From Chrysochromulina tobinii (taxonomy: Eukaryota), in contig JWZX01001800.1 in assembly GCA_001275005.1 (NCBI GenBank), positions 1-36,650 of the forward strand: a DNA stretch of 36,650 nt. The letters run 5' to 3'. The notes under the pieces are model-generated. The model was not told the origin of the DNA. It worked only from the letters and a program-made list of their open reading frames with translations, and ran no database searches. Of the stretch, positions 5,301-35,644 are shown in pieces (the stretch's first letter is position 1; every line of letters starts with the position of its first letter). Position numbers and translations under genes: made by a program.

Positions 5301-5748
5301 TCTGTGCCTCCTGCTCGTCGTCATGCCCGGCGCCCTCCGCCTTCCCAGCTAGGGTTAGCCCCAGCTGCCCTTCGCTTTCGCGGGCTATGTGCCTGGCATA
5401 CGCGACGGCGGCCTCGACGGCGGTCGCAAAGCATCCGAGAGAGACATCCCGCCCAGGCTCCAGCACACGCGTGTATCCGGCCTGGAAGGGCTTATCCCAG
5501 GGCTGCCCTGATGGATCATTATGACAATTTGGCCTGCGGAACACGCCAAGGTAGCCCGTGTTCGAGTGAGGTGAGAGATGCAGCCGGAGCCCCTCAGCCT
5601 CGGTGAGCACCATGTCTGCCCCAACCTCCTCCTGGTCATCAGCCTCCACGCCGGCGTCGCCCTCAGGTTCGAGATACTCATCACGCTCAAGCGCGACGTT
5701 GCTGGCGTGGACCGGAATGCCGCGCGGCACTCGTTCCGCAGCTTGCAT
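2338..5748 (-). CDS. Intronless protein with seven AP2/ERF-like DNA-binding repeats and a C-terminal SP-RING (zf-MIZ)-like finger
   Basis: Seven copies of LRLHLSxxSxTGYxxV...KPFxAxY...VSLGxFATAVEAAVAYA, resembling the AP2 GV...LG.F.T..EAA.AY signature. C-terminal LQCVLSHQRLIDPATLEGCMHLSRCN...CPVHGC follows the SP-RING pattern. First ATG at 5748; the ORF track start at 5772 is TTG. Confidence 0.8.
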   Translation of the reverse strand: MQAAERVPRGIPVHASNVALERDEYLEPEGDAGVEADDQEEVGADMVLTEAEGLRLHLSPHSNTGYLGVFRRPNCHNDPSGQPWDKPFQAGYTRVLEPGRDVSLGCFATAVEAAVAYARHIARESEGQLGLTLAGKAEGAGHDDEQEAQSEQGTAKDAAGRVPRGIPFNASNVALERDESLEPEGDAGVEADDQEEVGGDMVTEAEGLRLHLSPRSNTGYRSVRREPNYPSGQPRAKPFRAEYRHDGRSVSLGYFATAVEAAVAYAKHMARDGEAAAEAEAGEADARAVMVTEAEGLRLHLSPRSSTGYLRVRREPNDPSGQPRAKPFRAEYRRDGRSVSLGCFATAIEAAVAYAKHMARDGEAAAEAEGAGHDDEQEAQSEQGTAKDAAERVPRGIPFNASNVALERDESLEPEGDAGVEACDLAEVGADMVTEAEGLRLHLSPQSNTGYLHVIRLPNNPSGQPPAKPFQAKYKRDGRHVSLGCFTTAVEAAVAYARHIARDGEAAREADAAGMVTEAEGLRLHLSRNSSTGYRRVHRRPNNPSGQPRAKPFQVQYRRDGRNVSLGHFATAVEAAVAYAMHVAHDGEAAAEAEGVEHDDEQEAQSEQGAAKDAADQVPRGIPVHASNVAHECDECEDEDSDEDRDECGTFGCTLPDKHAGLHQIPTLVRGARERRPSSRVLEGLKPVSQVAIAKQRSRSRAAVGDGAWDGAWDEEGGAEEEGPLEEREEEEEDGVELTPDAAGMVTEAEGLRLHLSPLSNSGYLRVRRMPNYPSGQPRAKPFQVQYERDERLVSLGYFATAVEAAVAYARHMARDGESAGEADAAGMVTEAEGLRLHLSPRSNTGYRSVYRIPNYSSGQPPAKPFQARYKRDERLVSLGYFATAVEAAVAYAKHMARGGEAAAEAEGAGHVDECDENDESSDEQDEEDDEDDEDDEVGEPDGEVDDEDGEVKLELTPTEDEEEEEEDEECREVRAIPAVAQAMESDEDEDEALLEVQVEWEQLRLQCVLSHQRLIDPATLEGCMHLSRCNLTALEESRRHQSCQARSSVCPVHGCNISCLRRGSVRRDDWLRALLSTVPSTVDVIWLRGDEVSLTPPRREGGAMLSGNKGGKRKVEVALEVTATRPLQRRRRAMP
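3020..5745 (-). repeat. Internal modular duplications (AP2 module and VPRGIPxxASNVA linker module) within the AP2 gene
   Basis: Near-identical nucleotide blocks, e.g. GAGATGCAGCCG(G/A)AGCCCCTCAGCCTC recurring for each AP2 unit; the linker module occurs four times. Confidence 0.85.
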
Positions 5749-13091: not shown

Positions 13092-14215
13092 ATGGCCGAG
13101 GACTCGCTCGTGGATGCCGTAGCCAGCATCTCCCTTCGAGAGCTGAATCATGACGTGGTTCGTCTCGTCGCGGTTGCGCTGACCGAGTCGGCATCGCGTC
13201 GCGTGTCGTCGTCGTCAGCTGCTGCATTCAACCCTGCTGACTTTGCTGCCGAACAACACGCACGAAATTGCGCTGGAGCCACGGAAATCGCCGCAATGCT
13301 GCAGGTGTGTCGGGGTTGGCGCGCAGCCATCTGTGCGACGGACGAGATCTGGGCCCGGCTGCTGCAGGCAGCTTTCCCGCGCCTGAACTTTGACGAACGT
13401 GCCGCATCATTTCGGCGAATCTTTGTTGCCGTGCAGCAAGCGCAACGGCTGAACTCCGAGCCGCCGGTGACGAGGACGCCCCCACACTCACCCGGCGCGT
13501 CGCTCGCCGACTTCACCTTCGTCATCATGGCGCGCTTCCAGCGCTGGGATGAGAATGAGCCCGTCGACGACCTCGACCGCGAGGTGCTCGAAAGCAGCGG
13601 CCCGATTGAGACATGGGCGGGAGGCATGAGCGCGTCCAGCCTCGGATCCCGACCGGACACGGAGGCGCCCTTCTTAGGCCTCCTGCAATGCGACGCCGCC
13701 GTATGCACCCTGAGCGTCTACGTCACCGCTCCGCCCGACGCCGAGGGTCGATGTCGCACGTGGCCACTCTATCGGGAGGGCGTGGCCGAGGGGAGCGATG
13801 AGGACTGCAGCGAGATGTGCGTGCCCCTCCCATGGCCTCTCTCATGGCCTCTCTCATGGCCTCAGACTGCCTCTCTCATGGCCTCGGACTGCCTCTCTTA
13901 TGGCCTCGGACTGCCTCTCTCCGCAGGTTCACGTACTACACCACACAAGAGTTGCCGTACGCGCACTACGCCGTTGGTGTGAATGACCTCGACGACTTCG
14001 GCGAGGACGGTGTGAAGTTCACGATGATGCCGCGCAATTACGAGGGAAGCGTCTCACTCGGCCTCCAATATGACGATCAGCTCTACGAAGAGGACTGTGT
14101 GCGCTACCTGCGTGGGGAGCCGATTACGACCCACCTCGTCGATCGCGAGCTCGCCGCGCGGCTCGACGCCGAGAATGGCCCCTGGAAAGTACCGGTACTG
14201 TCAGACACTAGTTAG
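13092..14215 (+). CDS. F-box-like protein; exons 13092-13816 and 13927-14215
   Basis: N-terminal LRELNHDVVRLV...MLQVCRGWRAAICATDEIWARLL resembles an F-box. The GT-AG intron 13817-13926, filled with CATGGCCTCTCT-type repeats, joins AT|G TTC in frame. Confidence 0.6.
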
Positions 14216-14318
14216 TGTACATTGTACCGTACAATCATCTTCCTCCTTCTCTTGTCGTTCGGAGCTGACCTTTTCGCTCAACTCGAAGAAGCGTTGTCGG
14301 TTGCCGGGTTGGATAGCG

Positions 14319-17300
14319 ATGCGGCCCAGAACAGCCTTTGTCGAGTATGGCGGCGGCGCCTTGACCGGCGCGTCGCGCACGGGCACCACGCCGCGGCTGC
14401 ACAGCTCGCCCGCCCTGCAGATGGTCACCGGCGGGTCCACCAACCAGACAGCGCTCTACCAGCCGACATATGAGTACCGCGTGCTGCCTGGGCCATTGAC
14501 TACACCGCCCGGGGCCATGAGCATGGAGTCCAAGGGCATGCAGATGGAGCTCGTCGCGACCAGCGAGCTTGAGGGCGCCAAGAAACGACTCGTCGACGCG
14601 GCCGTGGGGGCGGCGGTCAAGGCAGCCAAGGCGAAGGCGGCCAAGGATCATCTGCATGGCGAGGAGGCGGCGGCCGCTGAGGCGGAGGCAGCGGCGAAGG
14701 CCAAGAGCGCTGAGCCCTCGATGGTCGACCTCATCAACGCCATCCGCACGGAACGGAAGGAGAGCGGCATGGCGCCCGAGCAGGTGCCCGCTCTCGACCA
14801 GGTAGTGGCCCTGCTCCCTCACACCACCGGAGCCAAGTGGCGGCTCGAGCTGCAGTGCACCGGATGGCAGAGCGCCGTTGGAGTGATGACCGAGGCGCCC
14901 ACCGCCACCTTCAAGCTCGCGCGCGCGGGGCAGCTGGCCCTCGATCGGCGCCTCTCCGCGCGCAGCGCCGTCGTGGGCACGGATGGCAAATGCTCGCACT
15001 GGTCCGAATGGCAACACGTCGAGCCGCCGCCCATCCATATTAGGCAGCGGCACGTCGAGCCGCCGCCCACCCATATTAGGCAAGTCGGTGGCGACAGGTC
15101 GACGACGATCATCGGGCGCGCCGCTGCTGATGAGACGGCAGCCAAGGTCGCGGCTGAGGCGGCGGCAGTGGAGGCGGTAGCGGCGGTTGAGGTGCGCATG
15201 AGGCAGGAGGCGCAGGCGCAGCTGGAGGCGCTGCAGCAGCAGCAGCAGCACGCGCTCGAGACGGCGCTCGCCCAGCAGCGCGCCGAGCTGAGCGCTAGCT
15301 TTGAGGCGCGCCTGGCGGATCGGGAGGCGCGCCTGGCGGATCTGGAGGCGCGCCTGGCCGCCGAGAGCGTGGCGCGCCATAGTGAGCCCTTGCATGCGCG
15401 CGAGGCCGCCGAGAGCGCGGCGCGCCATAGTGAGCACTTGCATGCGCGCAACGCGGCAGGCCCGGTGCACCCCGCACGTTACTCCATCGTCGACCTGAGC
15501 GAGGCCGCGACTCCACAAGGCGGCGCGATCGACATCGTCGAAGATCTTGAGGATGCGGAGAAGTACTACACGGACGTCACCAAGGGGAGGGTGCCTCCTC
15601 AGAAACCAGAAAGGCCGCGGCTGATCATAATGTATGGCCCGCCTGGATGCGGCAAGAGCTACGCGCTCAAGGCGCTATACAAGCTCAAGAACTGGTCGAA
15701 AGAGGAGTTTGTCCACCTCGACCCCGATGAGTGTCGCATGTACTGCCGCGAGTACCGCCTGTGCATCTCCGGGGCTCACGCAGCGAAGTTGCAGTCGGTG
15801 CAGGAGGAGTATGGCGACCGGCTGAAGCCTACAAAGTGGATTTCGCCCGACGGCAAGTTCGAAGAGGACGGGTTCACTGTCGACGGTCACTACCTTGCGC
15901 TCTCGAGCGCCACCATGCGCTCGCAGTTCCTTGTGCGAAAGAAGATGCTCTGGCCGCACAAAGAGGAGAAGATGACGGACGCCTTTGTTGACCGTGCGTT
16001 CGTCGCTGGCTACCATGTCGTCTACGACACAATGGGCAAAGAGCCAGATAAGTTCCTGAGAGAACTGATGAGTCGCGCGCGCAGGAACCACAACTACCAG
16101 GTCTTTGTCTGCGGCTGCTTTGCGCCCTGGGAGATGGTGTACAGCCGAGGCCGCATGCGCGCGCTCGAAACAGGGCGGGATGTCAACGCGGGCTTCGCGC
16201 TCGAACAGTTTGAGAACATTTTCCGGCGCGCGAACGGGCAGCTCCGGCCGGGTGAAGTGGACCGATCGCACCACGACAGATTCGAAAAGGAGCTCCGGGA
16301 AGGAGACGAGCTGTTCCTCTTCGACCATTCGGTTCAAGACGAGGATCTGAAGGTGGCCTTGCACTCAGTCAAAGGATCCGACGACTCCTCACGAGACGGT
16401 GAATTTCAACTGGAGGTGCAAGAGCAGCAGCAGGAAGTGGAACCCGACCCTCTGGATGCGGACACGCTGCTCAAACACTTCGATTCGTCCAACCCGGGCA
16501 AATCCGATGCGCCTGTGCAATTATGCGTGGAAGAATGCTCGGCAATGCTCAACGCGCAGACTCGGATGAGGACCACCATCGATGAACTCGCGCATCAGCT
16601 CAAGGAGATGAAGAAAATGGGTACAGAGTTGATGCGCAAGCAAGACCTTTCTCATCACAAAAAGGACATCACAAAGCTCGAGAAGAAAATTTCGGAGAAG
16701 ACGAAGGACTTGGAGGAATTGGAGAAGAGATACCCTGAACGGCGGGACAACACGATCTCGCAGTACACCCCGCTCCTCAGCCAGTCGGTCTTCCGTTTCG
16801 ACGCAGCGTACGAAAAGCTGCGCAAAAAAGAGAAGCAGCGCATCGAGAAGGGCGCACCGGCAATCAAGGAAGACGCACTCGAGCACATGAAGGTGCGCTG
16901 CGAAGAGGTGAACAAGCTCAAGGTGGATATGGTGCAGCCCTTGGCGAAGAATGACTTCACCGACGCCGACGATGCTCTCAACACTCTACTGGCGTTGATC
17001 CATAAGGCGAAGAAAGCCGTTCCAGTGCTCAAGGAGGTTATGGACGCGGTTCAGTCGCATGTTGAGAAAACGTGCCAAGAGTGCCAAGATGAGAAGCAAG
17101 AGTGCCAAGTTGAGAAGGGTAAGGTGACACTCGAGGGCCCTTCAATCAAGGGCGTGCCGCGCTGCTGCGCCAAGGTTGCTGAAGAATATGCCGGCAACTA
17201 CCGGAAGCTTTGCGACCTCGTGCGCTGCACCCTTGTCTTTCCGTCCCTGCACGCGATGGCTGTCGCCTTGAGCTTCCTCACCGACGGCGGACCTTGGACC

Positions 17301-18665
17301 GGCGACGACCAGCACAAGGGCTATCAGGGGGTATCGCCCCACTTGTCTCGCGCAATTGTCTGCCGCGCCAAGGATCGCATGAAACCCGACTTCGACGCAA
17401 GGAAAGCCGGTGGGAACCGCGACATCCTTCTCAACCTGTGGCTCAAGCTCGAGGATTCGGATTGGATCCTCGCTGAGCTGCAGCTGCACGTCAAGCCACT
17501 CTTTGATCTCAAGCACCGTCTTCACGTGCTGTACAAGGGAGCGCGCATCCTCGGTGCGCTCGAACCGGAGACGGTTGAGCATCAGGGCCAGCTCACCGCG
17601 CAAGCACTTGATCGCGCGGGTAGGGGCATTGTGCTCCACCTCAAGTGCTCCAACTCAACGCTCGATGAGCATCAGGAGAAGCTACAAGAGTTGCTGCAGA
17701 AGGACGAGTGCCCGCTTCTTGAGCTTTCGCTGAAAAGCTTTTCGGCTGTGTGGCAAAACGCGTGGAAGGGGGAAAAGAAGCCCTATTGGCCTCCTATCAC
17801 TAAGGATTCGTTGCGGCAGTCTCGAAAGATGAACGACTTCAATTGCTCGCTGCACGACCTGCTCATCAAAAGCGACGACCAGCAGCTCCATTGCCGCCGG
17901 CTGCGTACGCTCGACCTCAAGGGCCGTGGACTGCACGGCACGCTCCCGGAGAAGCTCGCGACCTGTATAGAAATGGAGACCCTGCATCTGGGCTATAATA
18001 GCCTCAAAGGTCCGATCCCGAGGGCCTTCAAGTTCATGACGAAGCTCAAAAACTTGAGCCTCAACTACTGCGAGCTCACTGGCGAGCTACCTGCAGAGCT
18101 CGGCGAGCTCAAAAACCTCGAGCGCCTCTGTCTGGACAACAACAAGCTGACGGGCTGCATCCCATCGAGGTTCGGTGGCCTGTCGGGCGTGGAGAAGGAG
18201 AAGATGAATGAGCTCGCGAAACAGAAAAAAGAGGCAGAGAAAAGCGGCTCCAAGATGGGCAAAGACGATGAGGCACGGCTGAAGGAGCTCACTCGGTTGC
18301 ACAAGGAAGCAGGCCTGACGAAGCTAAAGGGATTGTTCCTGAACGACAATCAGCTGAGCGGTGCGATTCCGGACACGCTCGCGAACTGCCGGGCGCTCGA
18401 AAGAGTGGATTTGACCAACAACCGATTGACCGGCACGGTGCCTCCGGTGTGGCTTGTTGAGAAGCAGTGGCCGAAGCTCGAGTTTTTCTGGCTCTACAAT
18501 AATGAGCACATGACTCAGGACAGTGGCCGCCTCGAGCAGCTGGAGCAGATCGCTAGGGATGGCGACGCATACTGGAAGCGTGTCGTGGATGAGTCAAAGT
18601 GGCGAACCGTTCGCCTGGAGGCCAGTCGTTCGCCCTCCCGTAGCCCCGGCGACGGACCCGCATGA
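14319..18665 (+). CDS. Large intronless multidomain protein: coiled coil, zeta-toxin-like P-loop kinase, RelA/SpoT-synthetase-like nucleotidyltransferase, C-terminal leucine-rich repeats
   Basis: IIMYGPPGCGKS...HLDPDECR...VVYDTMG...RALETGRDV (about 15620-16330); IKGVPRCCAKVAEEY...LCDLVRCTLVF...GGNRDILLNL...LAELQLHV (about 17140-17500); repeated LxxLxLxxNxLtGxIP (about 17900-18500). Start uncertain (ATG 14319 or 14421). Confidence 0.8.
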   Translation: MRPRTAFVEYGGGALTGASRTGTTPRLHSSPALQMVTGGSTNQTALYQPTYEYRVLPGPLTTPPGAMSMESKGMQMELVATSELEGAKKRLVDAAVGAAVKAAKAKAAKDHLHGEEAAAAEAEAAAKAKSAEPSMVDLINAIRTERKESGMAPEQVPALDQVVALLPHTTGAKWRLELQCTGWQSAVGVMTEAPTATFKLARAGQLALDRRLSARSAVVGTDGKCSHWSEWQHVEPPPIHIRQRHVEPPPTHIRQVGGDRSTTIIGRAAADETAAKVAAEAAAVEAVAAVEVRMRQEAQAQLEALQQQQQHALETALAQQRAELSASFEARLADREARLADLEARLAAESVARHSEPLHAREAAESAARHSEHLHARNAAGPVHPARYSIVDLSEAATPQGGAIDIVEDLEDAEKYYTDVTKGRVPPQKPERPRLIIMYGPPGCGKSYALKALYKLKNWSKEEFVHLDPDECRMYCREYRLCISGAHAAKLQSVQEEYGDRLKPTKWISPDGKFEEDGFTVDGHYLALSSATMRSQFLVRKKMLWPHKEEKMTDAFVDRAFVAGYHVVYDTMGKEPDKFLRELMSRARRNHNYQVFVCGCFAPWEMVYSRGRMRALETGRDVNAGFALEQFENIFRRANGQLRPGEVDRSHHDRFEKELREGDELFLFDHSVQDEDLKVALHSVKGSDDSSRDGEFQLEVQEQQQEVEPDPLDADTLLKHFDSSNPGKSDAPVQLCVEECSAMLNAQTRMRTTIDELAHQLKEMKKMGTELMRKQDLSHHKKDITKLEKKISEKTKDLEELEKRYPERRDNTISQYTPLLSQSVFRFDAAYEKLRKKEKQRIEKGAPAIKEDALEHMKVRCEEVNKLKVDMVQPLAKNDFTDADDALNTLLALIHKAKKAVPVLKEVMDAVQSHVEKTCQECQDEKQECQVEKGKVTLEGPSIKGVPRCCAKVAEEYAGNYRKLCDLVRCTLVFPSLHAMAVALSFLTDGGPWTGDDQHKGYQGVSPHLSRAIVCRAKDRMKPDFDARKAGGNRDILLNLWLKLEDSDWILAELQLHVKPLFDLKHRLHVLYKGARILGALEPETVEHQGQLTAQALDRAGRGIVLHLKCSNSTLDEHQEKLQELLQKDECPLLELSLKSFSAVWQNAWKGEKKPYWPPITKDSLRQSRKMNDFNCSLHDLLIKSDDQQLHCRRLRTLDLKGRGLHGTLPEKLATCIEMETLHLGYNSLKGPIPRAFKFMTKLKNLSLNYCELTGELPAELGELKNLERLCLDNNKLTGCIPSRFGGLSGVEKEKMNELAKQKKEAEKSGSKMGKDDEARLKELTRLHKEAGLTKLKGLFLNDNQLSGAIPDTLANCRALERVDLTNNRLTGTVPPVWLVEKQWPKLEFFWLYNNEHMTQDSGRLEQLEQIARDGDAYWKRVVDESKWRTVRLEASRSPSRSPGDGPA

Positions 18666-19264: not shown

Positions 19265-21418
19265 TCAAGCGAGCCCTCGCTCGTATGACCAGATGTCACC
19301 TTTGGGAGGGTTGCCGCGCTGCAGCACCTTCCGAATGCGCGCCTGATGAGGGAGGCAATCAGCATGCACTCAGAGACGCAATCAGAGACGCAATCAGCAC
19401 CTTCCGAATGCGCGCCTCGTCCTCATCACTGATCGGATTCGCGCCATTCACGATCAGCTTCGCAAGTTTCTTGTGCTCCTCCTGCCAAATTAGGACGACA
19501 CTTGCCCAATCAGGGAGGTGCTCACAGGCAATCAGGCACTCACAGTCAACCAGGCACTCAGTGGAGCTCGTTGAGGCGCACCAGATGAGTCGTATCTCGT
19601 ACTCCGAGCACCACCCAGCCGCCCTGAGGCCCCAACTGCCGCAGCACCTGTGGGGAGAGGTGAGGGCGCCGTGGTGAGCACTTGCATGCACACCAGGGGC
19701 CCCAGCTGGCGCAGCACCCAGCACACGGCGATGTTGGCTATGGTCGTGCCGTGCCGATCCGCCACGAGCTTGAGTTCTCCGAGAAGCTCTTGGAAGAGTG
19801 CCCAGCTGCCCCACCTGATGAGGGAGGCAATCAGCATGCCATCAGAGACGCAATCAGGGAGAAGCTCTTGGAAGAGTGCCCAGCTGCCCCACCTGATGAG
19901 GGAGGCAATCAGCATGCAATCAGATACGCAATCAGGGAGAAGCTCTTGGAAGAGTGCCCAGCTGCCCCATCGGTCGAGGTTCGCCTTGTAAACATGCGCA
20001 TCATGATGCAATCAGTATGCCATCAGTATGCAATCAGTCAGCCATCAGTCAGCCATCAGTATGCCCCACCGGTCGAGGTTCGCCTTGTACATGCGCATCG
20101 AGACGGTCGACAGCTGCCGGGGCGGCGCCGCAAGCCCAAGGAAGCGGTCCGAGAGCCAGCCTCCCGCGACAGTGCCGAAGCAGGCGAGCTTCAGACGATG
20201 CTCCCTTGCAAATGCGAGCATGCCATCAGAGGTCATCAGTGGTCATCAGGGGTCATCAGTGGTCATCAGTGGTCCTCACCTTGCAAATGCGAGCATGCCA
20301 TCAGAGGTCATCAGTGGTCATCAGTGGTCATCAGTGGTCATCAGGGGTCATCACCTTGCAAATGCGAGCATGTCATCAGAGGTCATCAGTGGTCATCAGT
20401 GGTCATCAGTGGTCATCAGGGGTCATCAGTGGTCATCACCTTGCAAATGCGAGCATGGCATTCTCCGGCCGCAGGTCGATGAGCGAGTACTGGACCTGGA
20501 CGAGTGGCAATCAGTGGCACTCAGTGGCACTCCGTGGCAATCAGTGGCAGTCAGTGGCACTCCGTGGCAATCAGTGGCACTCAGTGGCACTCCGTGGCAA
20601 TCAGTGGCAGTCAGTGGCACTCCGTGGCACTCAGTGGCACTCAGTGGCACTCCGTGGCAATCAGTGGCAGTCAGTGGCACTCCGTGGCACTCAGTGGCAC
20701 TCAGTGGCACTCCGTGGGACTCAGTGGCAATCCGTGGCACTCCGTGGCACTCAAAGGCTCTCAAAGGCACTCCATGGCGAGCAGTGGCGAGTCCTGGACC
20801 TGGTTCGCCGTGAGCGGCAGGCCCTCGTCCACCACGAGCTCGCGCAGGTGCGCCGTGTCGAAGTTGCATGCGGCCGCCTCGCCGAGGAGCCCTTCGCTCT
20901 TGAGCGTGAGTAGGTGGCGAGCGGCCTGCCGGTAGGCGCGATCGGACCAGTCCCACCCTGCCGAGATGATGTGAAGCGAGGGGAGTGCAGCGCGTGAGGC
21001 GTGGCGTGAGGGCCGCACCAGCCAGGTCGGTGTGGGGTTCGTCCGGCCGCCGCCGCGCCGTCGCCCTACAATGAAACTGCACGAGGCTCGGCACGACTCC
21101 GAGAGCGGTGCGAGATTGGGCGTTGACGGCTCGCGCGTTGGCCTCCGAAGCATCGGATGTCACGTACTTGGTGTAGATGTGCTTCGCTCCTGCGCGACCC
21201 AGCAGCGACTCCGACTTGCCATAGATGTCCGCCGTGTCAAAGTGCTCAAAGCCCGCAGCCATGTACGCCCTGACGGTCTCGACCGCCATGCTTTCATCGC
21301 GGTGGCGCTCGAGGAGCTGCCAAGCGCCGATCACGATGCGTGGGCTGCCGCCGTCCGCGCACGACTCTGTCGTGCTCGCGAGGAGGGCGACCAGGAGGGG
21401 CAGAAAGACCGCGATCAT
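19265..21418 (-). CDS. Aldo-keto reductase with N-terminal signal-like peptide; introns 20958-21069, 20496-20799, 20205-20439, 19815-20069, 19648-19717, 19482-19581, 19343-19415
   Basis: The spliced product has IVIGAWQL, FDTADIYG, TKY, LVQFHWWD, CNFD, NQ|VQYSLIDLRP, FGTVAGGWLSDRFLG, IANIAVCW|VLRQ, ending GDIWSYERGLA-stop; typical AKR motifs. Confidence 0.85.
20205..20439 (-). repeat. Intron of three units: GATGACCACT-type decamer array + copy of the upstream exon end (CATGCTCGCATTTGCAAG)
   Basis: CCTTGCAAATGCGAGCATG on + at 20204, 20279, 20354 and 20439; removal restores FAR|EHRL. Confidence 0.75.
20503..20790 (-). repeat. Long GAGTGCCACT/GATTGCCACG decamer array inside AKR intron 20496-20799
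   Basis: Continuous 10-bp periodicity (TCAGTGGCAC/TCCGTGGCAA on +). Confidence 0.9.
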
Positions 21419-22934: not shown

Positions 22935-25077
22935 CTACCAAGGACGCCCCCCATTGGATCCTGCGGGCACAAGGCCATGTGGAGGCACGCCGGCAGAAAG
23001 TAGCGCCTGAGCGCGACGCTCCTCTTTCGCGCGAAGTGCTGCGGCGGCCTGCGCGGCCGATAGTTCCGCGGCGGTTGCAACGGTGCACTTGAGCGCCGGC
23101 TGCGCGGCCCACGCAGAGCTGCCAGCTGTAGCAGGCCTCGGATTTATTTTAAGCTCAAGCACCTTCAACTGGTTCGGAGCTGGGTCTCCAAACAATTCGT
23201 TGACGGCCTTCAGCTGCCCTTTAGCTAGAAGACCGCATGCCTGCTCTGTCACAACTTTGCCTTGAGCTGATCGGGTATCCTCTTGACCATGAGACGTGTC
23301 GGTCGCGAGAAGCCTGGCCCCGTACCAAGCCTCTACGATGTTCGATGCTGAGGGCCCATCGTCCGAAGCCTGGACGACATCCCCTTCTTTGAAGGTCATC
23401 TTCACAGTCTTGGCCTCAGCGGCGCTTGCTTGCCAGATCGCGGAGCTCGCATCCGGGCTGGCAGCATCTGCGTCCGTGAGCATCAGAGCGCCCTTCTTCT
23501 GACCAAGGTCGGCCTCGGGCTGCCCACGCCAGTCAGCTCCGTCGAAAGCAACCCAGCAGCTTCCGTTCGTGTGCTTCCACGCGGGCCGGCCGTTTACAAT
23601 ACCATCGAGCATGTAGAGGCCCATGTACTCGGTCGCTTTGCCACGCAGCGAGCCACCCTCAATCTTGAGTCCGAGCGGAGCCCGCTCCATCACGATCGGC
23701 ATCACGCCGCGCTTGATCGCCTGCGCGTGCGTCTGCTTGGCCATGCGCGCGGCCGCCGCCTCGCCCTCAGCCCTTGTCATCGCCTCCGCTAGGGGCACCA
23801 CTTTGGCGTCCTCTCGCTCCTTGGCCGCCCGACACTCAGCCTCCGCTCGCGCGCGTGCGGCCGCCGCCTCGCCCTCAGCCCTTGCCATCGCCTCTGCTAG
23901 GGGCACCACTTTGGCGTCCTCTCGCTCCTTGGCCGCCCGACACTCAGCCTCCGCTCGCGCGCGTGCGGCCGCCGCCTCGCCCTCAGCCCTTGCCATCGCC
24001 TCTGCTAGGGGCACCACTTTGGCGTCCGCTCGCTCCTTGGCCGCCCGGCACTCAACCTCCGCTCGCGCCGTCGCCTCCCGGCACTCACGCTCGCCCTTCT
24101 GGTGCTCGGCCTTTGCACGCTCCACCGCCCCGGCGTTCGCCGCAACCAGCTGCTCCAGCTGCGCATCGATCGCTTCGAACGCGCCTTGCACCGTGGCGTC
24201 GAGCGCCTTGATCTTGGGCAGCTGGTCTTGCTTGTCGCTCTGGTTGGTCACCATCACGTCCGGCTTGGAGAGGAAGTCGAACGCCTGCTGAGGCGTCTTG
24301 GTGGCCCAAGTGTCGACGAGCGCCTTTTTGTACAGCTCAGCCTGTTCGGCGGCGCCCTGGATGCACACGATGTGGTAGCGCGCGTTTTCTGTGCTAACCG
24401 CCGACTTGAGGCCGTTGGGCGTCGCAAACTGCATGCCCAGCCACGCCTCGAACTGCGTCCAGAAGCGGGATGCGTACGAGAGGTCGTAGAGGATGAGGAC
24501 GGTCGTGCCCAGGAAGAGCATGTTGACCTGCGCGCAAGTGTACGGGGGAGAGCCATTGCGGGGTGTTAACATAACATAGGCGGCTGAGTCGCAGGGAAAG
24601 GGTGGCGAGGAAAGTGCGCTGTCCGAGGCAAAGCGCGGCACAGACCTCCGACAGCATGGTCTTGAAATCGGCCGTGTCCTCAACGCTGCGACTGAGGCCG
24701 ATGGTAGGCTGGTGCTGTGGCATGGAGCCGCCGTCGATCCACACGAGCTCGATCCGCTTGCCAGCCGACGAAACGAGAAAGGCCTTGATGGCCTTGAGCT
24801 GTTCGCCGTCGGGGTCGGGCTGAGTAGGCTCCATCCAGCGATGGGAGATGGACAGAATCTTCTCGACATGTGCCCCGCGGACCACCTCTTCATAGCTGAT
24901 GGTGACCTCGACGAACGCACTCGGGTGCTCCGCGCGCAGCTCCTGGAAAAAGGGCAGGTTCGTGCCGGAGAAGGTGCGCAGGAAGTCCGCCTTGATCATC
25001 CAGAACCTGCACGAGACTGGGCCTGATGGCGCTCGAACAGCGTCGGCTGGCGCTACGGCACTCTTAGAACGAGACAT
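22935..25077 (-). CDS. HET-like domain protein with 36-aa coiled-coil repeats and C-terminal beta-rich domains; one ordinary intron 24528-24645
   Basis: ILSISHRW...PDPDGEQL...VWIDGGSMPQ...MLSE|VNMLFLG...YASRFWTQFEAWL parallels the HET-domain motifs (SxxW, WID..C..Q, RxWTxQE). 3' end uncertain. Confidence 0.7.
23749..24068 (-). repeat. Three tandem 108-bp coding repeats (36 aa)
   Basis: GGCCGCCGCCTCGCCCTCAGCCCTTG at 23751, 23859 and 23967; encodes ARAExECRAAKERxDAKVVPLAEAMxRAEGEAAAAR. Confidence 0.9.
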
Positions 25078-27479: not shown

Positions 27480-27770
27480 CGCGAAAGATTCGCGTTCTGT
27501 CGGTGTGAAGGACACGTGTGAAGAACCACTTCAAGTTGAACGAGGGTGCGCCAAGCGCGGGCACGCGACGGGCAGACGGGAGTCGGACTTAACGGGGTAG
27601 GTGTGGACGATTACAAAAGTTCAAACAATAATTTCAGACTGTAAATACACTCTACAGTATTGGTGCGCATGCTGCACCTCAAGCCCGAGACGTGGCATGA
27701 GCGCGCAGGATGAAACGTAGGTTACATAGACAGCAGCTCGTTGCCGTGCAGGCATTCTTGTGCTCACGCG

Positions 27771-29097
27771 TCACGGCCCATGCTCTTGTTGTGCAGATTC
27801 GGGCGGGTTCACTTTCTCTTTGCTTTGTCGGCGTACTTGCCGGCCCTCGGCAGGACCCTCCGCCTGCTGCTTCCATATCTTGGCAGTCGCAGCCGCGGCC
27901 GCATCCTGAATGAGCGCCGTCACGGCGGCTTCCGGCGCGACCTCGGCCTTCATCTCGGCCTTTATCTCGGCCTTCATCTCGGCCATGGTCGGCTCGCGCA
28001 CCTGCAGGTTCACAGTGGGCAGCTCGACATTCTCCGATTAGTCAATGACAGCGCTCATCAGTGAACACACAGTCGCGCACCTGCAGGTTCACAGTGGGCA
28101 GCTCGACGTTCTCCAGACGCGCTTGCATTCGGTAGTCGCCCGGGACCGACGCGCTAAAGTTGATCGCATACGAGCCGTCGCCGCGGTCGATGACCTGATG
28201 AGGGAGGCAGGGATTGTGCACTCAGAGACGCAATCAGAGACGCAATCAGAGACGCAATCAGAGACGCAATCAGATTGCATACGAGCCATCGCCGCGGTCG
28301 ATCACCTGGCAATCCGAAGCCTTCGGTCATCAGCGGTCATCAGCGGTCATCAGTGTTCATCAGTGGTCATCAGTGGTCATCAGTGGTCATCACCTGGCAA
28401 TCCGAGGCCTTCGGGCCAAAGACTTTGGCCTCGAGCCGACTGCCGCCCACGTCGACGTTGTTGTTGAACCGGTCGACGAGCTGCACGAGGACCTCGCAAG
28501 GCTGGCCCGTCGAGGGAGCCCCCCCCCCGAGGCTCGTGGCTGGGAAGAGCTTTGACTTGGGCGCGAAGGGTGGGCCGGGGCGCACGATGAACTCCATCGG
28601 GGAGCCTGTGAAGATGGGGTGTGAAGATGGGTGTGAAGATGGGTGTGGAGATGGGATGGGGATGCCCGTTGAGCATGCACTCGGACGCAATCAGTATGCA
28701 CTCGGAAGCAATCAGCATGCATTCGGTGGTCATCAGTGGCCATCAGTGGTCATCAGTGGCAATCAGTTGGCAATCACCTGTGATGGGGTGCCCGTTGAGC
28801 TTGATCGTGGCCGAGTAAGTTCCCTTGAGGGTGAGCTCCGAGCTCGAGCTGAACTCGTGCGCACCTGTGGGGAGGCGAGGGCGCCGTGGTGAGCACATGC
28901 ATGCGGGCAGGTGGAGGGTGAGCTCCGAGCTCGAGCTGAACACGAGCGCACCGACGACCTCGGCCTGGCGCACGACCATCAGGGCTCATCAGTCGCAATC
29001 AGTGCTCATCAGTCGCAATCAGGGCGCACCGACGACCTCGGCCTGGCGCACGACCGCCGCGGACTTGCGAGCGTTCGCACCGCCGCCGCCGCCGCCT

Positions 29098-29135
<38 letters not shown>

Positions 29136-32100
29136 CTCGCCCTGTGCCGAGCCTCGGTCGCCCAACACGGCGCCCACATTGGCCCTCAGCTGCATCGGAT
29201 GCTCGCCGTCCGGCGCATGCAAGATCGTCTTGAGCTCCGATTCCACAGCCTTGAGCGTCGCCTGTGGGGATGCGGGGGCGCCGTAGTGAGCACGTGCATG
29301 CTGGCTGAGAGGGGATGTGCATCGGGACGGCTCGGCCTTCAGGGTCAGGGCGCCGTGGTGAGCACATGCATGCTGGCTGAGAGGGGATGTGCATCGGGAC
29401 GGCTTTGGCCTTCAGGGTCACCTGATTGCTATACTCATCAGTGGTCATCAGTGGTCATCAGGGGTCACCTGATTGCCATACTTATCAGTGGTCATCAGTG
29501 GTCATCAGTGGTCATCAGTGGTCATCAGTGGTCATCAGGGGTCATCAGGGGTCACCTGATTGCCATACTCATCACGCATCTGCACACGCAGCAGCAGCCG
29601 CTCGCCCGCTGGGTGCTCTGTGATCGCGTCGCGCAAGAAAGACGATGCGGCCGTTGGTCGGCCAGGGTCGACATGCACTGCAAACGGGCAGCCCGGTAGG
29701 AAGATGCGCGTCAGGATCGCCTCGCCTCGCCTTGCCTCGCCGCCGCCGTCGACAACGGCTGCCTTGGCGGCAACGGCCGCCTCATGCTCCGCGTTGGCTT
29801 TGGCGCCCGCCGAGTGCTTGCCTGATGAGGGACGCAATCAGTTTCAATCAGTGGCAATCAGAGGTGCAATCAGAGGTGCAATCACTGCGCATGCAAAGTG
29901 CTTGCCTTCTCCGACGTGCTTCACGGCTGCCTCAAGCTTCTTCTTCTCTTCTGGACTGACGTGCACGTCCGTCCACATGTAGAGCTCGTAATCTCCCGAG
30001 CTGTGAGGCTCATAGCTCACCTGTGGGGAAGGGACGGCGCCGTGGTGAGCACATGCATGCAAGGCAGGGGCTCGTAATCTCCCGAGCTGTGAGGCTCTTA
30101 GCTGACCGCGATCGTGGAGCCCTGCCATGAGCTGTGATACTGCAACGTCTGCATCGCGCGCACGAACGCGTTGCGCTCCGCCTGGTTCATCAGACGCAAT
30201 TCGTGGCAATTAGTAGGGCGCTCAATCGCAATCGGTGGCACTCCGTCGCACTCAGTGGCATTCAGTGGCATTCAGTGGTACTTAGTGGCACTCAGTCGTA
30301 CTCCGTGGCACTCAGCGGCACTCAGTGGCACGCACCTGCTTCATCAGGCTCGGCGCCTTCTTGTTCGGATCCGCATCGGTGTGTGCCTCCGTCTCCCCCT
30401 TGAGCTTCAACGGCTTCTTGCCTGTGGGGAAGGGACGGCGCCGTGTTGAGCACGTGCATGCAAGGCAGGGGCCCATCATCTCCCTCGAGCTTCAACGGCT
30501 TCTTGCCTTCGTTCGATGGAGTCTCGACGATGAGGGACGCCATCAGTGGCAATCAGAGGTGCAATCACAGCGCCCGCCGAGTGCTTGCCTTCGTTCGATG
30601 GAGTCTCGACGAGACCGAACCCAAACTTGAGCGACGACTGCGTCGACGGCACCGCCGAGTTGCCAAACGCATCTCGACAGATGATCTCGAGGCGCATCAT
30701 TTCCCCACAGGCCGCGCTGCGCAGCCCGCCGACACCAGTCTTGCCCTTCCAGAGCACCTCGCACCGCGCCACGTCGGGCGCCGCCGAGAGGACCGTTACG
30801 GCCGTTGGAGAGCCGCGCACCTGTGGAACAGGCCAGGCGCGCCGTGGTGAGCACTTGCATGCAAGGCGGGGCTGTTGGAGAGCCGCGCACGGGGGCGTCG
30901 TTGATGGTCACTAGGAGAGAGTACTCGCCCGCGACCTTGCCCTTCCATGAGATCTCGTAGCTCCCGTTGCGCAGATCGCTGATTTGGGGCACGGGTGCGG
31001 TCTCCTCCGGCGTGATGCGCACCTGATGAGGGAGGCAATCAGCATGCAATTCAGATCGCTGATTTGGGGCACGGGCGCGGTCTCCTCCGGCGTGATGCGC
31101 ACCTGATGAGGGAGGCAATCAGCATGCAATTCAGAGCTGGTCAAGGTTCGTCAGGTGAGCTCCATCGGGGCCTGCCTCCGTGATATGCCCCTCTGATTGC
31201 ATGCTGATTGCCTCCCTCATCAGGTGAGCTACTCCATCGGGGCCTCCGTGATATGCCCCTCTGATTGCATGCTGATTGCCTCCCTCATCAGGTGAGCTAC
31301 TCCATCGGGGCCTCCGTGATATGCCCCTCTGATTGCATGCTGATTGCCTCCCTCATCAGGTGAGCTACTCCATCGGGGCCTCCGTGATATGCCCCTCTGA
31401 TTGCATGCACCTTGATGTCCGCGCCGCCTTCGACGCCCATCATCAGTGGCAATCAACGCACATCATCAGTGGCAATCAACGCACCTTGATGTCCGCGCCG
31501 CCTTCGACGCACAGGTTGCCCATGTTGTCGCACAGCCGAAGCACAAAGGCGCCCCGGTTGCCCGCCACGCTGCTCAACGGCAGCTGCTCGGACGGCATCA
31601 AGGTCGTCGGGGCGTGCGCAGGGCCGGGCTTCACGTGGAGTGTGAAAGGCGAGCCTGGGAGGCGCGGGCGCCGTGGTGAGCACATGCATGCGCTCGGCCC
31701 GTTCGGGTTCAGTGTGAAAGGCGAACCTGGGAGGCTTGCGGACTGTTGACGAAGCCCCACGTGGAGCTTGTACGTGCCGGCCGCCCCGATGGAGTAGCTC
31801 ACCTGATGAACCTTGACCAGCTCGCCGTGTGCATGCAACCTGCCCGGGAAGATGCCCCCGAATGCAAACGCGATGCCGCGGGCATCAGCCGCGAGCTCAT
31901 ACGAGAAGCTCGGACCGACCTGTGGGGAAGAGGCGGGGGCGCCGTGGTGAGCGCTTGCATGCTGAGGCTCATACGAGAAGCTCGGACCGACCAGACGCTC
32001 AGCCAATTCCACAGCGCTTGGAGCCAACCCACTGAGCAGCTGGCTCGCTAGGCTACTCGTCGCCACGCCGCTGTGATTATTCACGCCAAGCGCCCCAGCT

Positions 32101-35100
32101 GCCTTGTAAGGCGCGACGCTCTCATCCAGATGGACGCCAGCACCGCTGTTAGCCTTGAGCGCCTTTTCGAACGCCTTGTCGGCGGCGAGCCGCTTATTCC
32201 ACAGCTCAAGCTGCAATCGGCGCTCATTAGCGTCGACCTTGGCGTGCTGGCGCGCGAGCCGCTCCTTGCCGCCCTTTTGGACCGCGGTCACCCATCCGCG
32301 TACCTGATGAAAGAGGCAATCGGTGGCAATCAGAGGCAATCACATCCCCTACTTGGACCGCGGTCATCCATCCCGCGTACCTGGATGAAAGAGGCAATAA
32401 TTGGCAATCAGTGGCAATCACATCCCCTACTTGGACCGCGGTCATCCATCCCGCGTACCAGCGTCCCGTCCGGCAATCATTGGCAATCAGTGGCAATCAT
32501 TGGCAATCAGTGGCAATCAGTGGCATCATCCATCCAGCGTACCAGCGTCCCGTCCGGTAGGGTCGCTCCCTCGACAACATACTGCACCTTAACACCAGTC
32601 GCCACAAGCACCTGTGCAGCAGGCATGGCGCCGTGGTGAGCACGTGCATGCACCATGGCGTGCGCCGTGGTGAGCACTTGCATGCACCTCAGCTCGCGTG
32701 CCGCCGTCGGCCGCTTGCTCTCGCCGCAGCTGCTTGAGGAGCGCGCCGGGTAGCACCTGATGAGGGAGGCAATCCGCATGCAATCGGAGGTGCAATCTCA
32801 GAGGAACGAGCCGGCAATCACCATGGCCAACTCGGCATTCACTGGCAATCAGTGGCCATCAGTGGCAATCAGTGGAAATCAATGGCAATCAGTGAAGATC
32901 AATAAAAAATCACCTTGGCCAACTCGGCGCTCTCGGTACTCAGAGCCTCGCGAAGGATGAGCGGCTTGGTGCCCACGACGGCGCGCGCCGTGCCGAGCCG
33001 TTCCCACAGCGCCGTGTCGGCGCTCTCCATCAGCCATGGGGTGGACGAGACCGGAATCGCCACGTCATCCGGATCGGCGCTGTCGCCCCCCACTTCCAAA
33101 TCGGGCAAGTTTGGCAAGTTTGGCAAGTTTGGCAAGTGGCTCCCAAAGGAGCTCGCGCCCACCACGGCGCTACCGCCACCGCCCTTGGCCCCCGCCTTGC
33201 CCCCCGCCCTGCCCACCCCCTCCTTGGCGCCCACCACGACGCCCGGCGTTGCCCTTGCCGTTGGGCGATTTGTTACCGGCCGGCCCGACGTCGGGCGCCG
33301 TGGTGGGCGGCGCCGTGGTGGGCGGCGGCAGCGACTTGGCGGGTGCGGGGGGGGGAAGCGACTTGGACGTGACCGGCGCCGTGCTGGGCGACGATGGAGG
33401 AGATGCGATCTCGATCTCGTCGGCGAGCAGCTGCGGCCTCGCTGAGGGCAAAATCTCAAGCGGCTCCACGTGCACGTCGAGCTCCTCCGCGTACGCGACC
33501 TGATGAGGGAGGCAATCCGCATGCAATCAGAGGTGCAATCTCGGTCGCATCTCGGTGCCTCCGGCGTGATGCGCACCTGGCCCAGATTGTCGACGAACTC
33601 AATGGCAATCAGTGGCAATCAGTGGCCATCAGTGGCAATCAATGGCACGCACCTGGCCCAGATTGTCGACGAACTCAATGTCGAACGACATCGGTTGGCG
33701 CGCGACTGCATGCTTGAGTGCGTCGCCGCGCAGCAGGCATCGGGAGGGCTCCGCCTTGAGTGTCACCTGTGGGGAGGCGAGGGCGCCGTAGTGAGCACTT
33801 GCATGCCGCGCAGCGGGGATGTGCATCGGGCCCTTCACAGCCGATGCAATGACGCCGTGATGGGCACATGCATGCTTGGAGAGGGGATGTGCATCGGGGC
33901 CTTGAGTGTCATCGCATCGGCTGTGGAGGGAGCTGTGAAGGGGCTGTGCAGGGGCTGTGCAGGGGCTGTGAAGTGAGCGTCACCGCATCAGCTGTGAAGG
34001 GGCTGCCCGAGATCGCGATCCCATCGCACGAGATCGAAATCTCGAGCTGGCCTGAGACCTCGGGCTTGTAGGTCACCTGTGGGGAGGGGAGTGGGGAGGG
34101 CGCCGTGGTGAGCACTTGCATGCACACTCGAGGTGGCCCGAGACTTTGGGCTTGTAGGTCACCGTGTAGCAGCCGTTGTCGTGGTCCAGGACCTTGGCAT
34201 GTAATTTCTGCGGGTTGGGGCGCACCCCGCGCACCTGTGGAACAGGCAGGGCGCGCCGTGCTGAGCGCTTGCATGCAAGGCGGGGCCATCCGTGTGGGGC
34301 GCACGCCGCGGCAATCAGTGGCCATCAACGCACCTTGACCACAAACGGGTCGCCGCCGGTGGTTCGTCAATCAGTGGTTCGTCAATCAGTGGTTCGTCAA
34401 CGCACCTTGACCACAAACGGGTCGCCGCCGGTGGTTCGTCGATTGCCATCGCCATCATGGGCCGTGATGACAAACTGCGCGGCCTGATTGACCAATGCCC
34501 ACTGCAAGCCGCGCCCATCGCACTTGCACTTGCTCGCGAGCGCTCGCGACGGCGCTTGCGGCACTGTGGGGTCCTTTGACGGATCCGGCAGCACCGTCGC
34601 CGCCGGCGCTCGCTCCACTGCGACGGGCTCCAAGACCGCCTCCTTCTTCTTCTTCTTCTTCTCATCGGCGCGCTCACCACGGCGCCCTTTCGTATCGGCC
34701 GGTTCGCTCGCTTTGGGCTTCTCGGCCGCCGCCGGCGCCCTGGCCGTGATGAGCTCAAACGCGAGCTCGGACGGCCTGTGGAATCCGCCGTGATTGCTCG
34801 GGCACTTGAAGAAATAACGGTCGCCGATTCGGCCGTTGCACGTGCCCACGGGTTCGTCGAACTGGATGCCGCACCAGACCCCCTGGCCCAGCGTCGGGAT
34901 CGTCCCCACGAACTGCACGACGCCGTGCTTGTCGCCCACGCGGCAACGGTCGCCCTGCCGGTAGGTCGGTATTCGGGTGTTTGGCGGCTCGACGGCCACC
35001 GGCGGGCTCAACTCTTGAGAGTCGGCTCGCCGGTGCTTCGCATGGGGCTTCTTGTCCGTCGAGCCGGATGCCTCGGGTCCTGGCGCGGCCGCGGCAATGT

Positions 35101-35257
35101 CCGTCAACGTCGAGGACAGCGAGGCCGCGGGCTCTGCGGCATCGCCCTTTCGCTGCTTGGCGTTCTTGATGACCTCCTTACCGACCGCTCGGAGCTTCGC
35201 TTTGGGGCCTTTGTCCGCGGCGGGCGACGCCAGCCCGGAGCTGAGGACGTCCGCCAT
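27771..35257 (-). CDS. CAP-Gly domain + multiple filamin/ABP280 Ig-like repeat protein, interrupted by roughly 20 duplication-type introns
   Basis: First exon (34406-35257) has GVVQFVGTIPTLGQGVWCGIQFDEPVGTCNG (CAP-Gly). Filamin motifs DHDNGCYT|VTYKP...ISGSPFT, DLRNGSYEISW...VRGSP, LPGSPFTLHVKPGPA, IDRGDGSYAINF. Checked introns include 34235-34405, 34077-34162, 33500-33652, 31023-31484, 28195-28393 and 28002-28080; the full exon map is not resolved. Confidence 0.75.
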
Positions 35258-35644
35258 GCTGCGGCGGCGGCTTTGCCTGCTTCGCGCCTATCGCTGCCGT
35301 CTTGACGACCTGGTGTGGCGGACAGCCCGTTCCGAAAAAGAGGGTCGCTCAATTCCTTCGCTCTTTGCGTTTCGCGTTTCAAACCGATTCTATTTTTGGA
35401 ACCTCTTCGGGGAAAAACAAGCCGGTCAAGTCTAGTCATACGTGTCCTTTTTTGTCTGCCCCTGGTGTGCCCTCACCCTGTCGTGCCCTTTCCTAAGCTC
35501 TGGGTGTTGAAGCATCTGTGAAGCTCCCGGGATCGGAACGGTCGTGGCTGTCGACGACCTCTACGTGCTGCTCGGCCGAGAGCACCCCAATAGACGGGCT
35601 GCGTGCCCGTGACGAGCGACTCGGCCACCTTGTCCTGCTCCGCC

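What the first reader, a model, noticed from the sequence alone, without database searches (positions are those of the whole stretch)
29803..33652. Introns carry sequence copied from other junctions of the same gene
Seen: intron 33500-33652 contains CCTCCGGCGTGATGCGCACCTG (33558-33579), identical to the exon start/acceptor junction 2.5 kb away (31004-31025); the two sites share CAG|GTGCG. The intron starting near 30588 begins with GCGCCCGCCGAGTGCTTGCCT (30570-30590), identical to the junction at 29803-29823. Those two sites share GAAG|GCAAG, and both introns contain GCAATCAGAGGTGCAATCAC. Inference: new introns are templated from existing neighbouring introns by microhomology-guided template switching. 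A cDNA of a mis-spliced transcript is an alternative source.
Basis: partly seen in the sequence, partly recalled or inferred. Interest (0 to 1): 0.85.

Follow-up and report, generated by a model that had tools for sequence, protein, structure and literature searches.

The report
Introns copied within one algal gene
In a gene of a small alga that is crowded with young introns, several introns carry short pieces copied exactly from other intron junctions of the same gene up to 4.5 kb away, which likely records a copying enzyme jumping between junctions while introns were being made or rebuilt.

Summary
Both exact copies (22 and 21 nt) are there, are far beyond chance, and recur in independent assemblies. 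The organism is a Chrysochromulina-type haptophyte. Its introns are typically a 15-40 nt duplication of the target exon plus one of two shared branch-point/acceptor cassettes. The scan noted this cassette family before on another piece of this genome (e1-2577349). New here is local copying. The gene holds three more within-gene copies, one inverted, and six other loci show the same thing, including a whole intron copied 2.9 kb with its donor's exon duplicate still attached. In 737 kb, rare cassette variants are shared by 5% of same-gene intron pairs within 3 kb, against 0.35% between loci and none between neighbouring genes. Limits: copying of a distant junction is rare (2 of 269 sites by a strict test); microhomology above background appears only in some whole-unit copies; birth versus later rebuilding, and DNA versus RNA template, are unresolved; no RNA data were obtained. 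A mis-spliced cDNA does not explain the copies that contain intron-only sequence. Verdict: new variant of known intron-gain routes (same-gene duplication, tandem duplication with repair filler).

The parts
27770..35257 (-). Host gene, CAP-Gly domain plus filamin/Ig repeats; 17 cassette-type acceptors plus about 3 more introns read by eye; 3' end approximate
   Evidence: Pfam CAP_GLY and Filamin on exon 1; collinear homologue P0002; acceptor list
33500..33652 (-). Recipient intron 1 (153 nt, GT..AG): 5' repeat module 33652-33603, copy of upstream exon end 33602-33577, borrowed piece, cassette A
33558..33576 (-). Borrowed 19 nt = first 19 nt of the exon starting at 31022; the cassette behind it best matches the intron ending at 32757 (29 nt exact, best of 272)
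31004..31022 (-). Donor exon start for case 1 (duplicated inside its own intron at 31102-31084)
30422..30588 (-). Recipient intron 2 (167 nt, GC..AG): borrowed unit 30588-30529, copy of own upstream exon 30528-30507, copy of own downstream exon, cassette B
30529..30588 (-). Borrowed unit: 19 nt of the exon starting at 29821 followed by a cassette whose best match among 273 is the intron of that same site (26 nt exact)
29822..29905 (-). Donor intron for case 2
29262..29555 (-). Recipient intron 3: two copies (from 29421 and 29348) of the exon start at 33766 joined to 20 nt found otherwise only inside the intron at 33879-33898; target shares 12 of 14 nt with the donor site
33767..33983 (-). Donor intron for case 3, 4.5 kb upstream (5' end read by eye)
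31134..31412 (+). Inverted insert inside intron 31484-31023: copy of exon 31783-31823 interrupted by tandem cassette A units, an intron-bearing version of a site that now has no intron; 3 units here, 2 in L016
31783..31823 (-). Exon source of the inverted insert
30813..30833 (-). Cassette B variant plus junction shared exactly (21 nt) with 34227-34247; downstream exons share 8 nt

Best explanation
These introns contain sequence copied from other junctions and introns of the same gene, most likely because a broken or stalled strand left its template, copied part or all of another intron of that gene, and rejoined at the exon site it had left. Shown: the usual product is a variable duplication of the downstream exon plus a branch-point/acceptor cassette; cassette variants are shared among introns of one gene; some copies carry the donor's exon piece, switch part-way at a few shared bases, or are inverted. 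Inferred: the jump and rejoin at short homologies (at least the AG|G of the splice site), selection for products that splice cleanly, and that the same step creates introns at empty sites. The template is taken to be the gene's own DNA strand or its cDNA/pre-mRNA held in cis; these two are not separated, and no enzyme was identified.
For: Exact copies beyond chance and in independent assemblies. Own-exon duplication in 175 of 301 acceptor sites, median 25 nt, 10-90% range 15-41. Two clean empty/filled site pairs between strains (L073/L014, L045/window). Type A introns: best rare-variant partner lies in the same locus for 17.5 of 89 against 1.9 expected, p 0.001; 10.5 of 70 against 1.4 without the window. 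Same-gene pairs under 3 kb 15 of 298 against 93 of 26,509 between loci; other-gene pairs under 8 kb 0 observed, 2.9 expected at matched distance, p 0.02. Case 2 cassette points to the same donor site as its exon piece. L008: whole intron with donor's exon duplicate copied 2.9 kb. L058: switch in mid-duplication at 6 shared bases. L054 and the window: inverted copies. Donors lie upstream in 4 and downstream in 4 resolved cases (read by eye).
Against: Distant junction copies are rare: 2 of 269 sites by the strict test, both in this gene; the exact 16-mer test showed no excess over offset controls. Type B enrichment is not significant (p 0.09; 0.34 without the window). Sharing pairs have no extra target homology (2.41 against 2.33 nt, p 0.42), and case 1 has only 2 nt. 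The 29-nt filler tested from the one polymorphic type B intron has no source in its own 8.7-kb contig, and one filler is shared between two loci, so copying between genes also happens. Gene boundaries were set by a GC heuristic and the pairs are not independent. Cassettes are sense in 173 of 176 cases with a clear orientation, which a blind DNA process explains only through selection. Splicing itself was not verified with RNA.
Confidence: 0.5

Rival explanations
1. Later gene conversion or repair between introns that already existed: the shared cassettes pair, and the flanking bases are dragged along. This remodels introns but does not create them.
For: Window cases 1-3 sit in composite introns that also hold local duplications; unit numbers differ between assemblies and strains; sharing decays with distance.
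Against: The L008 recipient is wholly a copy and has no duplication of its own site. Borrowed exon pieces start exactly at the donor junction, at the end away from the cassette.
Confidence: 0.2
2. Intron transposition by reverse splicing of an excised intron into its own transcript or into R-loop DNA, then reverse transcription or repair.
For: Whole units start at the donor's 5' splice site (case 2, L008); sharing is limited to the same gene; orientation is sense; the model is in print (PMC3443670, PMC4540971, passages).
Against: It does not give 15-40 nt target duplications, mid-duplication switches (L058), chimeras of two donors (case 1) or inverted copies.
Confidence: 0.13
3. A non-autonomous introner mobilised in trans by a transposase or a retroelement protein, with a preference for nearby targets and sloppy ends.
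For: Two cassette families are spread over the genome; variable long duplications, one fixed end and inversions resemble target-primed reverse transcription (own knowledge); Chrysochromulina introners are reported (10.1101/2022.06.06.494994, Fig. 2C legend); a Replitron with fuzzy ends and variable duplications is described, and one locus is noted in C. tobinii (PMC10288648, passages).
Against: No terminal inverted repeats seen, no fixed duplication length, no conserved 5' end, no stable fold (z -1.79 to +0.83); no element-encoded protein was seen in the introns.
Confidence: 0.1
4. The borrowed pieces come from cDNA of exon-skipped transcripts, or the first one is a real 18-nt micro-exon (33576-33559).
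For: In both quoted cases the donor lies downstream, and the junction phases read by eye agree. 33576-33559 is six codons flanked by AG and GC.
Against: Cases 2 and 3, L008 and L040 include intron-only donor sequence; four donors lie upstream; the homologue has no insertion at this junction.
Confidence: 0.07

Closest known systems
Same-gene intron duplications in fungi and intron transposition in Oikopleura/Mycosphaerella (PMC3609843 and PMC3443670, passages; PMC4122922, passage)
   Same: Near-identical introns at unrelated positions of one gene.
   Different: There they are a few whole-intron pairs (82 members in 24 fungi, half of them segmental duplications; 14 transposition events listed). 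Here copies carry the donor's exon duplicate so direction can be read, many are partial, chimeric or inverted, and they ride on a genome-wide cassette family.
Introners / introner-like elements (10.1101/2022.06.06.494994, passages and one methods section; 10.1101/2020.10.14.339549, parts 1-2 of 4)
   Same: Repeated intron families that carry one splice site and take the other from a target duplication; a Chrysochromulina sp. family is reported with 4-bp duplications and no inverted repeats.
   Different: Duplication length is variable and long (15-41 nt) rather than fixed at 3-8 nt; only one end is shared; variants cluster by gene. The published screen needs similarity at both ends and removes pairs whose proteins are alike, so it would likely miss this class.
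Intron gain by tandem genomic duplication and by staggered double-strand-break repair (PMC3443670, PMC4202315, passages)
   Same: A duplicated proto-splice site supplies a splice site; Daphnia new introns have terminal direct repeats of 4-12 bp and internal repeats.
   Different: Here the filler is not anonymous: it is a ready branch-point/acceptor cassette traceable to other introns, often of the same gene.
Templated insertions by MMBIR or polymerase-theta end joining (PMC8421209, abstract and outline; polymerase theta from own knowledge)
   Same: Short copies of nearby sequence, switches at microhomology, inversions, several switches in one event.
   Different: Known as sporadic scars, not as a recurring source of spliceable introns; no enzyme was identified here.
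Template switching during reverse transcription (Roy and Irimia model, as cited in PMC3609843 and PMC3443670; original not read)
   Same: Predicts intron sequence copied between sites by a polymerase jump.
   Different: A proposal without such footprints in the passages seen; an RNA template is not shown here.

Membership tests
Introner (TE-derived intron family) | Many introns of one genome share sequence | tested here: met
   378 cassette-type acceptors after collapsing tandem units in 737 kb
Introner (TE-derived intron family) | Similarity at both intron ends | tested here: not met
   5' part is a copy of the local exon in 175 of 301 sites; only the 3' cassette or a 5' repeat module is shared
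Introner (TE-derived intron family) | Presence/absence at orthologous sites with clean empty site | tested here: met
   L014/L073 (88 nt) and window 20205-20440/L045 (235 nt), among 12 locus pairs aligned
Introner (TE-derived intron family) | Removed from the transcript by splicing | tested here: inconclusive
   Homologue collinearity and GT/GC..AG ends; no RNA data
MITE-type introner | Terminal inverted repeats and fixed-length target duplication | tested here: not met
   Duplications 15-41 nt; no stable fold in five stretches; no terminal inverted repeat seen in the introns read
Fungal introner-like element | Stable RNA secondary structure, seamless insertion | tested here: not met
   z-scores -1.79 to +0.83; insertion duplicates exon sequence
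Same-gene intron duplication | Near-identical intron at a non-homologous site of the same gene, flanking exons not duplicated | tested here: met
   L008 7380-7456 and 10250-10324; window 30588-30529
Microhomology-mediated templated insertion | Junction homology above chance | tested here: inconclusive
   Above background in three window cases, marginal in L008, absent in case 1 and in the 17 cassette-sharing pairs
Microhomology-mediated templated insertion | Dependence on the repair polymerase | not testable with these tools
   No whole genome held; needs genetics
Replitron or non-LTR non-autonomous element | Autonomous partner with matching ends | not tested
   No whole genome held; cassette absent from bacterial genomes and nearly absent from viral contigs (0, 1 and 0 hits)

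The most novel reading that the evidence does not exclude
Chrysochromulina makes introns without a transposon: a gene's own transcript, held in cis, is the template from which a polymerase copies the acceptor end or the whole of one intron into another exon site of the same gene, so introns breed inside the gene that already has them and leave a readable family tree.
Probability: 0.25. Interest if true: 0.88.

Novelty: new variant of a known kind. Interest (0 to 1): 0.68.

Why it matters
How new spliceosomal introns arise is an open question, and intron-to-intron copying has rested on a handful of cases. Here each copy keeps a tag of its donor site, so donor, direction, distance and breakpoints can be read, and strains differ in presence and structure. 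A complete genome with RNA-seq would turn this into a direct test between DNA template switching, RNA-templated copying and reverse splicing. It would also explain why introns cluster in some genes while neighbours have none, and suggests that introner screens needing two similar ends miss a class.

Tried and rejected
Filamin-repeat paralogy: rejected, matches are exact, end at 21-22 nt and lie in stop-containing inserts. Single-assembly artefact: rejected by L001 and L016; a shared short-read artefact is unlikely for unique 19-mers but long reads were not seen. Exact 16-mer junction test: no excess of distal copies over offsets of 20-80 nt. Plain edit distance between cassettes: little signal, swamped by the consensus; replaced by rare 12-mer sharing, first without and then with collapsing of acceptors closer than 250 nt. 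Two masking attempts were too loose or too strict. Of 9 loci inspected by eye, L012 (coding repeat) and L010 (segmental duplication) were dropped and L037 shared cassette only. Third-position bias of mismatches between exon and its intronic copy: not general (26 of 71, p 0.32). Rfam: no match at a family threshold in 27500-35500. Viral or bacterial source of the cassettes: 0, 1 and 0 hits; the one viral hit, L128, was not examined. No RNA or raw-read evidence and no check of the full spliced reading frame are available, so splicing of all introns stays open. Not found in print in searches; the library lacks most subscription papers, the C. tobinii and C. parva genome papers were not among the hits, and the supplements of the 2022 introner preprint, not seen, may list these families.
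Full report
Check of the observation. Both matches are present at the stated places and are maximal at 22 and 21 nt; the first string has a third copy at 31084. In 200 Markov simulations of the window no match of 21 nt arose. Two independent assemblies agree over these positions. They differ from the window by one tandem unit of an inverted insert and by one base near 33248.

Setting. The region is a minus-strand gene with a CAP-Gly domain and filamin repeats. A 1358-residue homologue aligns exon by exon and supports the junctions that matter. A neighbouring gene's protein clusters at 90% identity with a Chrysochromulina parva entry, so the organism is taken to be a close Chrysochromulina. No whole genome was held. 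A cassette pattern fetched 127 metagenome loci of the same organism or close relatives, 85 sequences and 736,664 nt after removing redundancy. These loci were chosen for an exact consensus cassette, so they are not a random sample.

Anatomy. The gene has 17 cassette-type acceptors. An intron typically begins with a copy of the start of the downstream exon, which supplies the GT or GC donor, and ends in cassette A (for example 33525-33500) or cassette B (for example 33806-33767), each with a branch-point-like motif and the acceptor (motif reading from own knowledge). Such a copy was found at 175 of 301 sites, median 25 nt. Other introns duplicate the upstream exon end around a 10-nt repeat module that carries the donor. 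Strain comparisons gave one clean empty/filled pair of each kind among 12 pairs aligned, so the process is recent.

Distant copies in this gene. Case 1: 33576-33558 is the start of the exon at 31022; the cassette behind it best matches the intron ending at 32757, not the donor site, so two templates were used. Case 2: 30588-30529 is the start of the exon at 29821 followed by a cassette whose best match among 273 is the intron of that very site, so it looks like a whole sister intron. Case 3, not in the finding: the intron 29555-29262 holds two copies of the exon start at 33766 joined to 20 nt that otherwise occur only inside the intron at 33879, and its target shares 12 of 14 nt with the donor site. 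Case 4: 31134-31412 is an inverted, cassette-bearing version of exon 31783-31823, a site with no intron today. Case 5: the acceptors at 34234 and 30820 share a cassette variant and 8 nt of exon.

Other loci. Nine loci picked were read by eye. Six show the same thing: L008 (whole intron copied 2.9 kb with the donor's exon duplicate), L040, L054 (with an inverted third copy), L058 (switch in mid-duplication at 6 shared bases), L063 (weaker) and L078. Two were dropped as coding or segmental repeats and one shared cassette only. Between loci, one shared non-cassette filler was seen among the 87 rows left after dropping orthologous locus pairs, of which only those of 18 nt or more were printed. The sample is about 1% of a genome (size recalled), so donors in other genes are mostly unseen.

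Statistics. With 306 acceptors, type A introns find their best rare-variant partner in their own locus 17.5 of 89 times against 1.9 expected, and 10.5 of 70 against 1.4 without the window; type B is not significant. Same-gene pairs within 3 kb share rare variants in 15 of 298 cases, against 93 of 26,509 between loci. Pairs in different genes within 8 kb never do, against 2.9 expected at matched distance, p 0.02; gene limits came from strand and a GC heuristic and pairs are not independent. Random sites share 5 nt of downstream exon 5% of the time, so splice consensus accounts for part of the 9-nt overlap in case 2.

Mechanism. The products are best read as a strand that leaves its template after copying part of an exon, copies from another intron of the gene, and rejoins at the splice-site bases it left; only spliceable products would persist in exons. 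Partial, chimeric and inverted copies favour a polymerase jump over reverse splicing. Intron-only sequence and upstream donors argue against a mis-spliced cDNA. The limit to the same gene and the sense orientation (173 of 176) keep an RNA or cDNA template in play; inverted copies and antisense cassette fragments kept in frame in two exons show that orientation is not strict. Birth against rebuilding is settled only for L008, and there by anatomy alone.

Comparison. Same-gene intron duplications, tandem-duplication gain, break-repair gain and introners are all in print (passages or parts as listed under Closest known systems; also passages of PMC4540971, PMC4122922, PMC8469720, PMC11282704, PMC12130899 and PMC10288648; abstract of PMC8421209). 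The combination of long variable target duplication, a one-ended cassette and traceable within-gene copying was not found in ten searches. The 2022 introner screen needs two similar ends and removes pairs with similar proteins, which would likely hide it; its supplements were not seen.

Verdict. Real, recurrent and mechanistically informative, but a variant of known routes with the key step inferred. Interest 0.68.

Noticed in passing
window 15367-15453: Two antisense fragments of cassette B (best match 24 nt) lie in tandem and in frame inside the 1545-codon open frame 14028-18665, so a wrong-way insertion seems to have become coding.
   Followed up: partly
window 34660-34700: An antisense cassette B fragment (21 nt match) lies in exon 1 of the host gene, in frame.
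   Followed up: partly
window 29348-29319 against 33766-33737: The borrowed copy differs from today's exon at four internal bases, all synonymous third positions, as if copied from a diverged allele; not a general pattern.
   Followed up: partly
window near 33248: The window has one extra base relative to two independent assemblies, probably an assembly error in an exon.
   Followed up: no
window 20205-20440: Intron made of repeated upstream-exon copies and a donor-carrying repeat module, absent from L045.
   Followed up: partly
L014 (minus strand, 88-nt intron) against L073: Polymorphic type B intron with a 16-nt duplication and a coding-like filler of about 30 nt with no source in its contig.
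   Followed up: partly
window 2338-5748, 14028-18665, 22935-24995: Long open frames with no cassette-type acceptor sit beside genes with many such introns, as expected if introns breed within genes; not tested.
   Followed up: no
window 2338-5748: Intronless 1136-residue protein with seven near-identical repeats that look like AP2-type DNA-binding domains (label recalled, not searched).
   Followed up: no
L128:4495-4519: One viral-collection contig ends in cassette B; probably host DNA, not examined.
   Followed up: no
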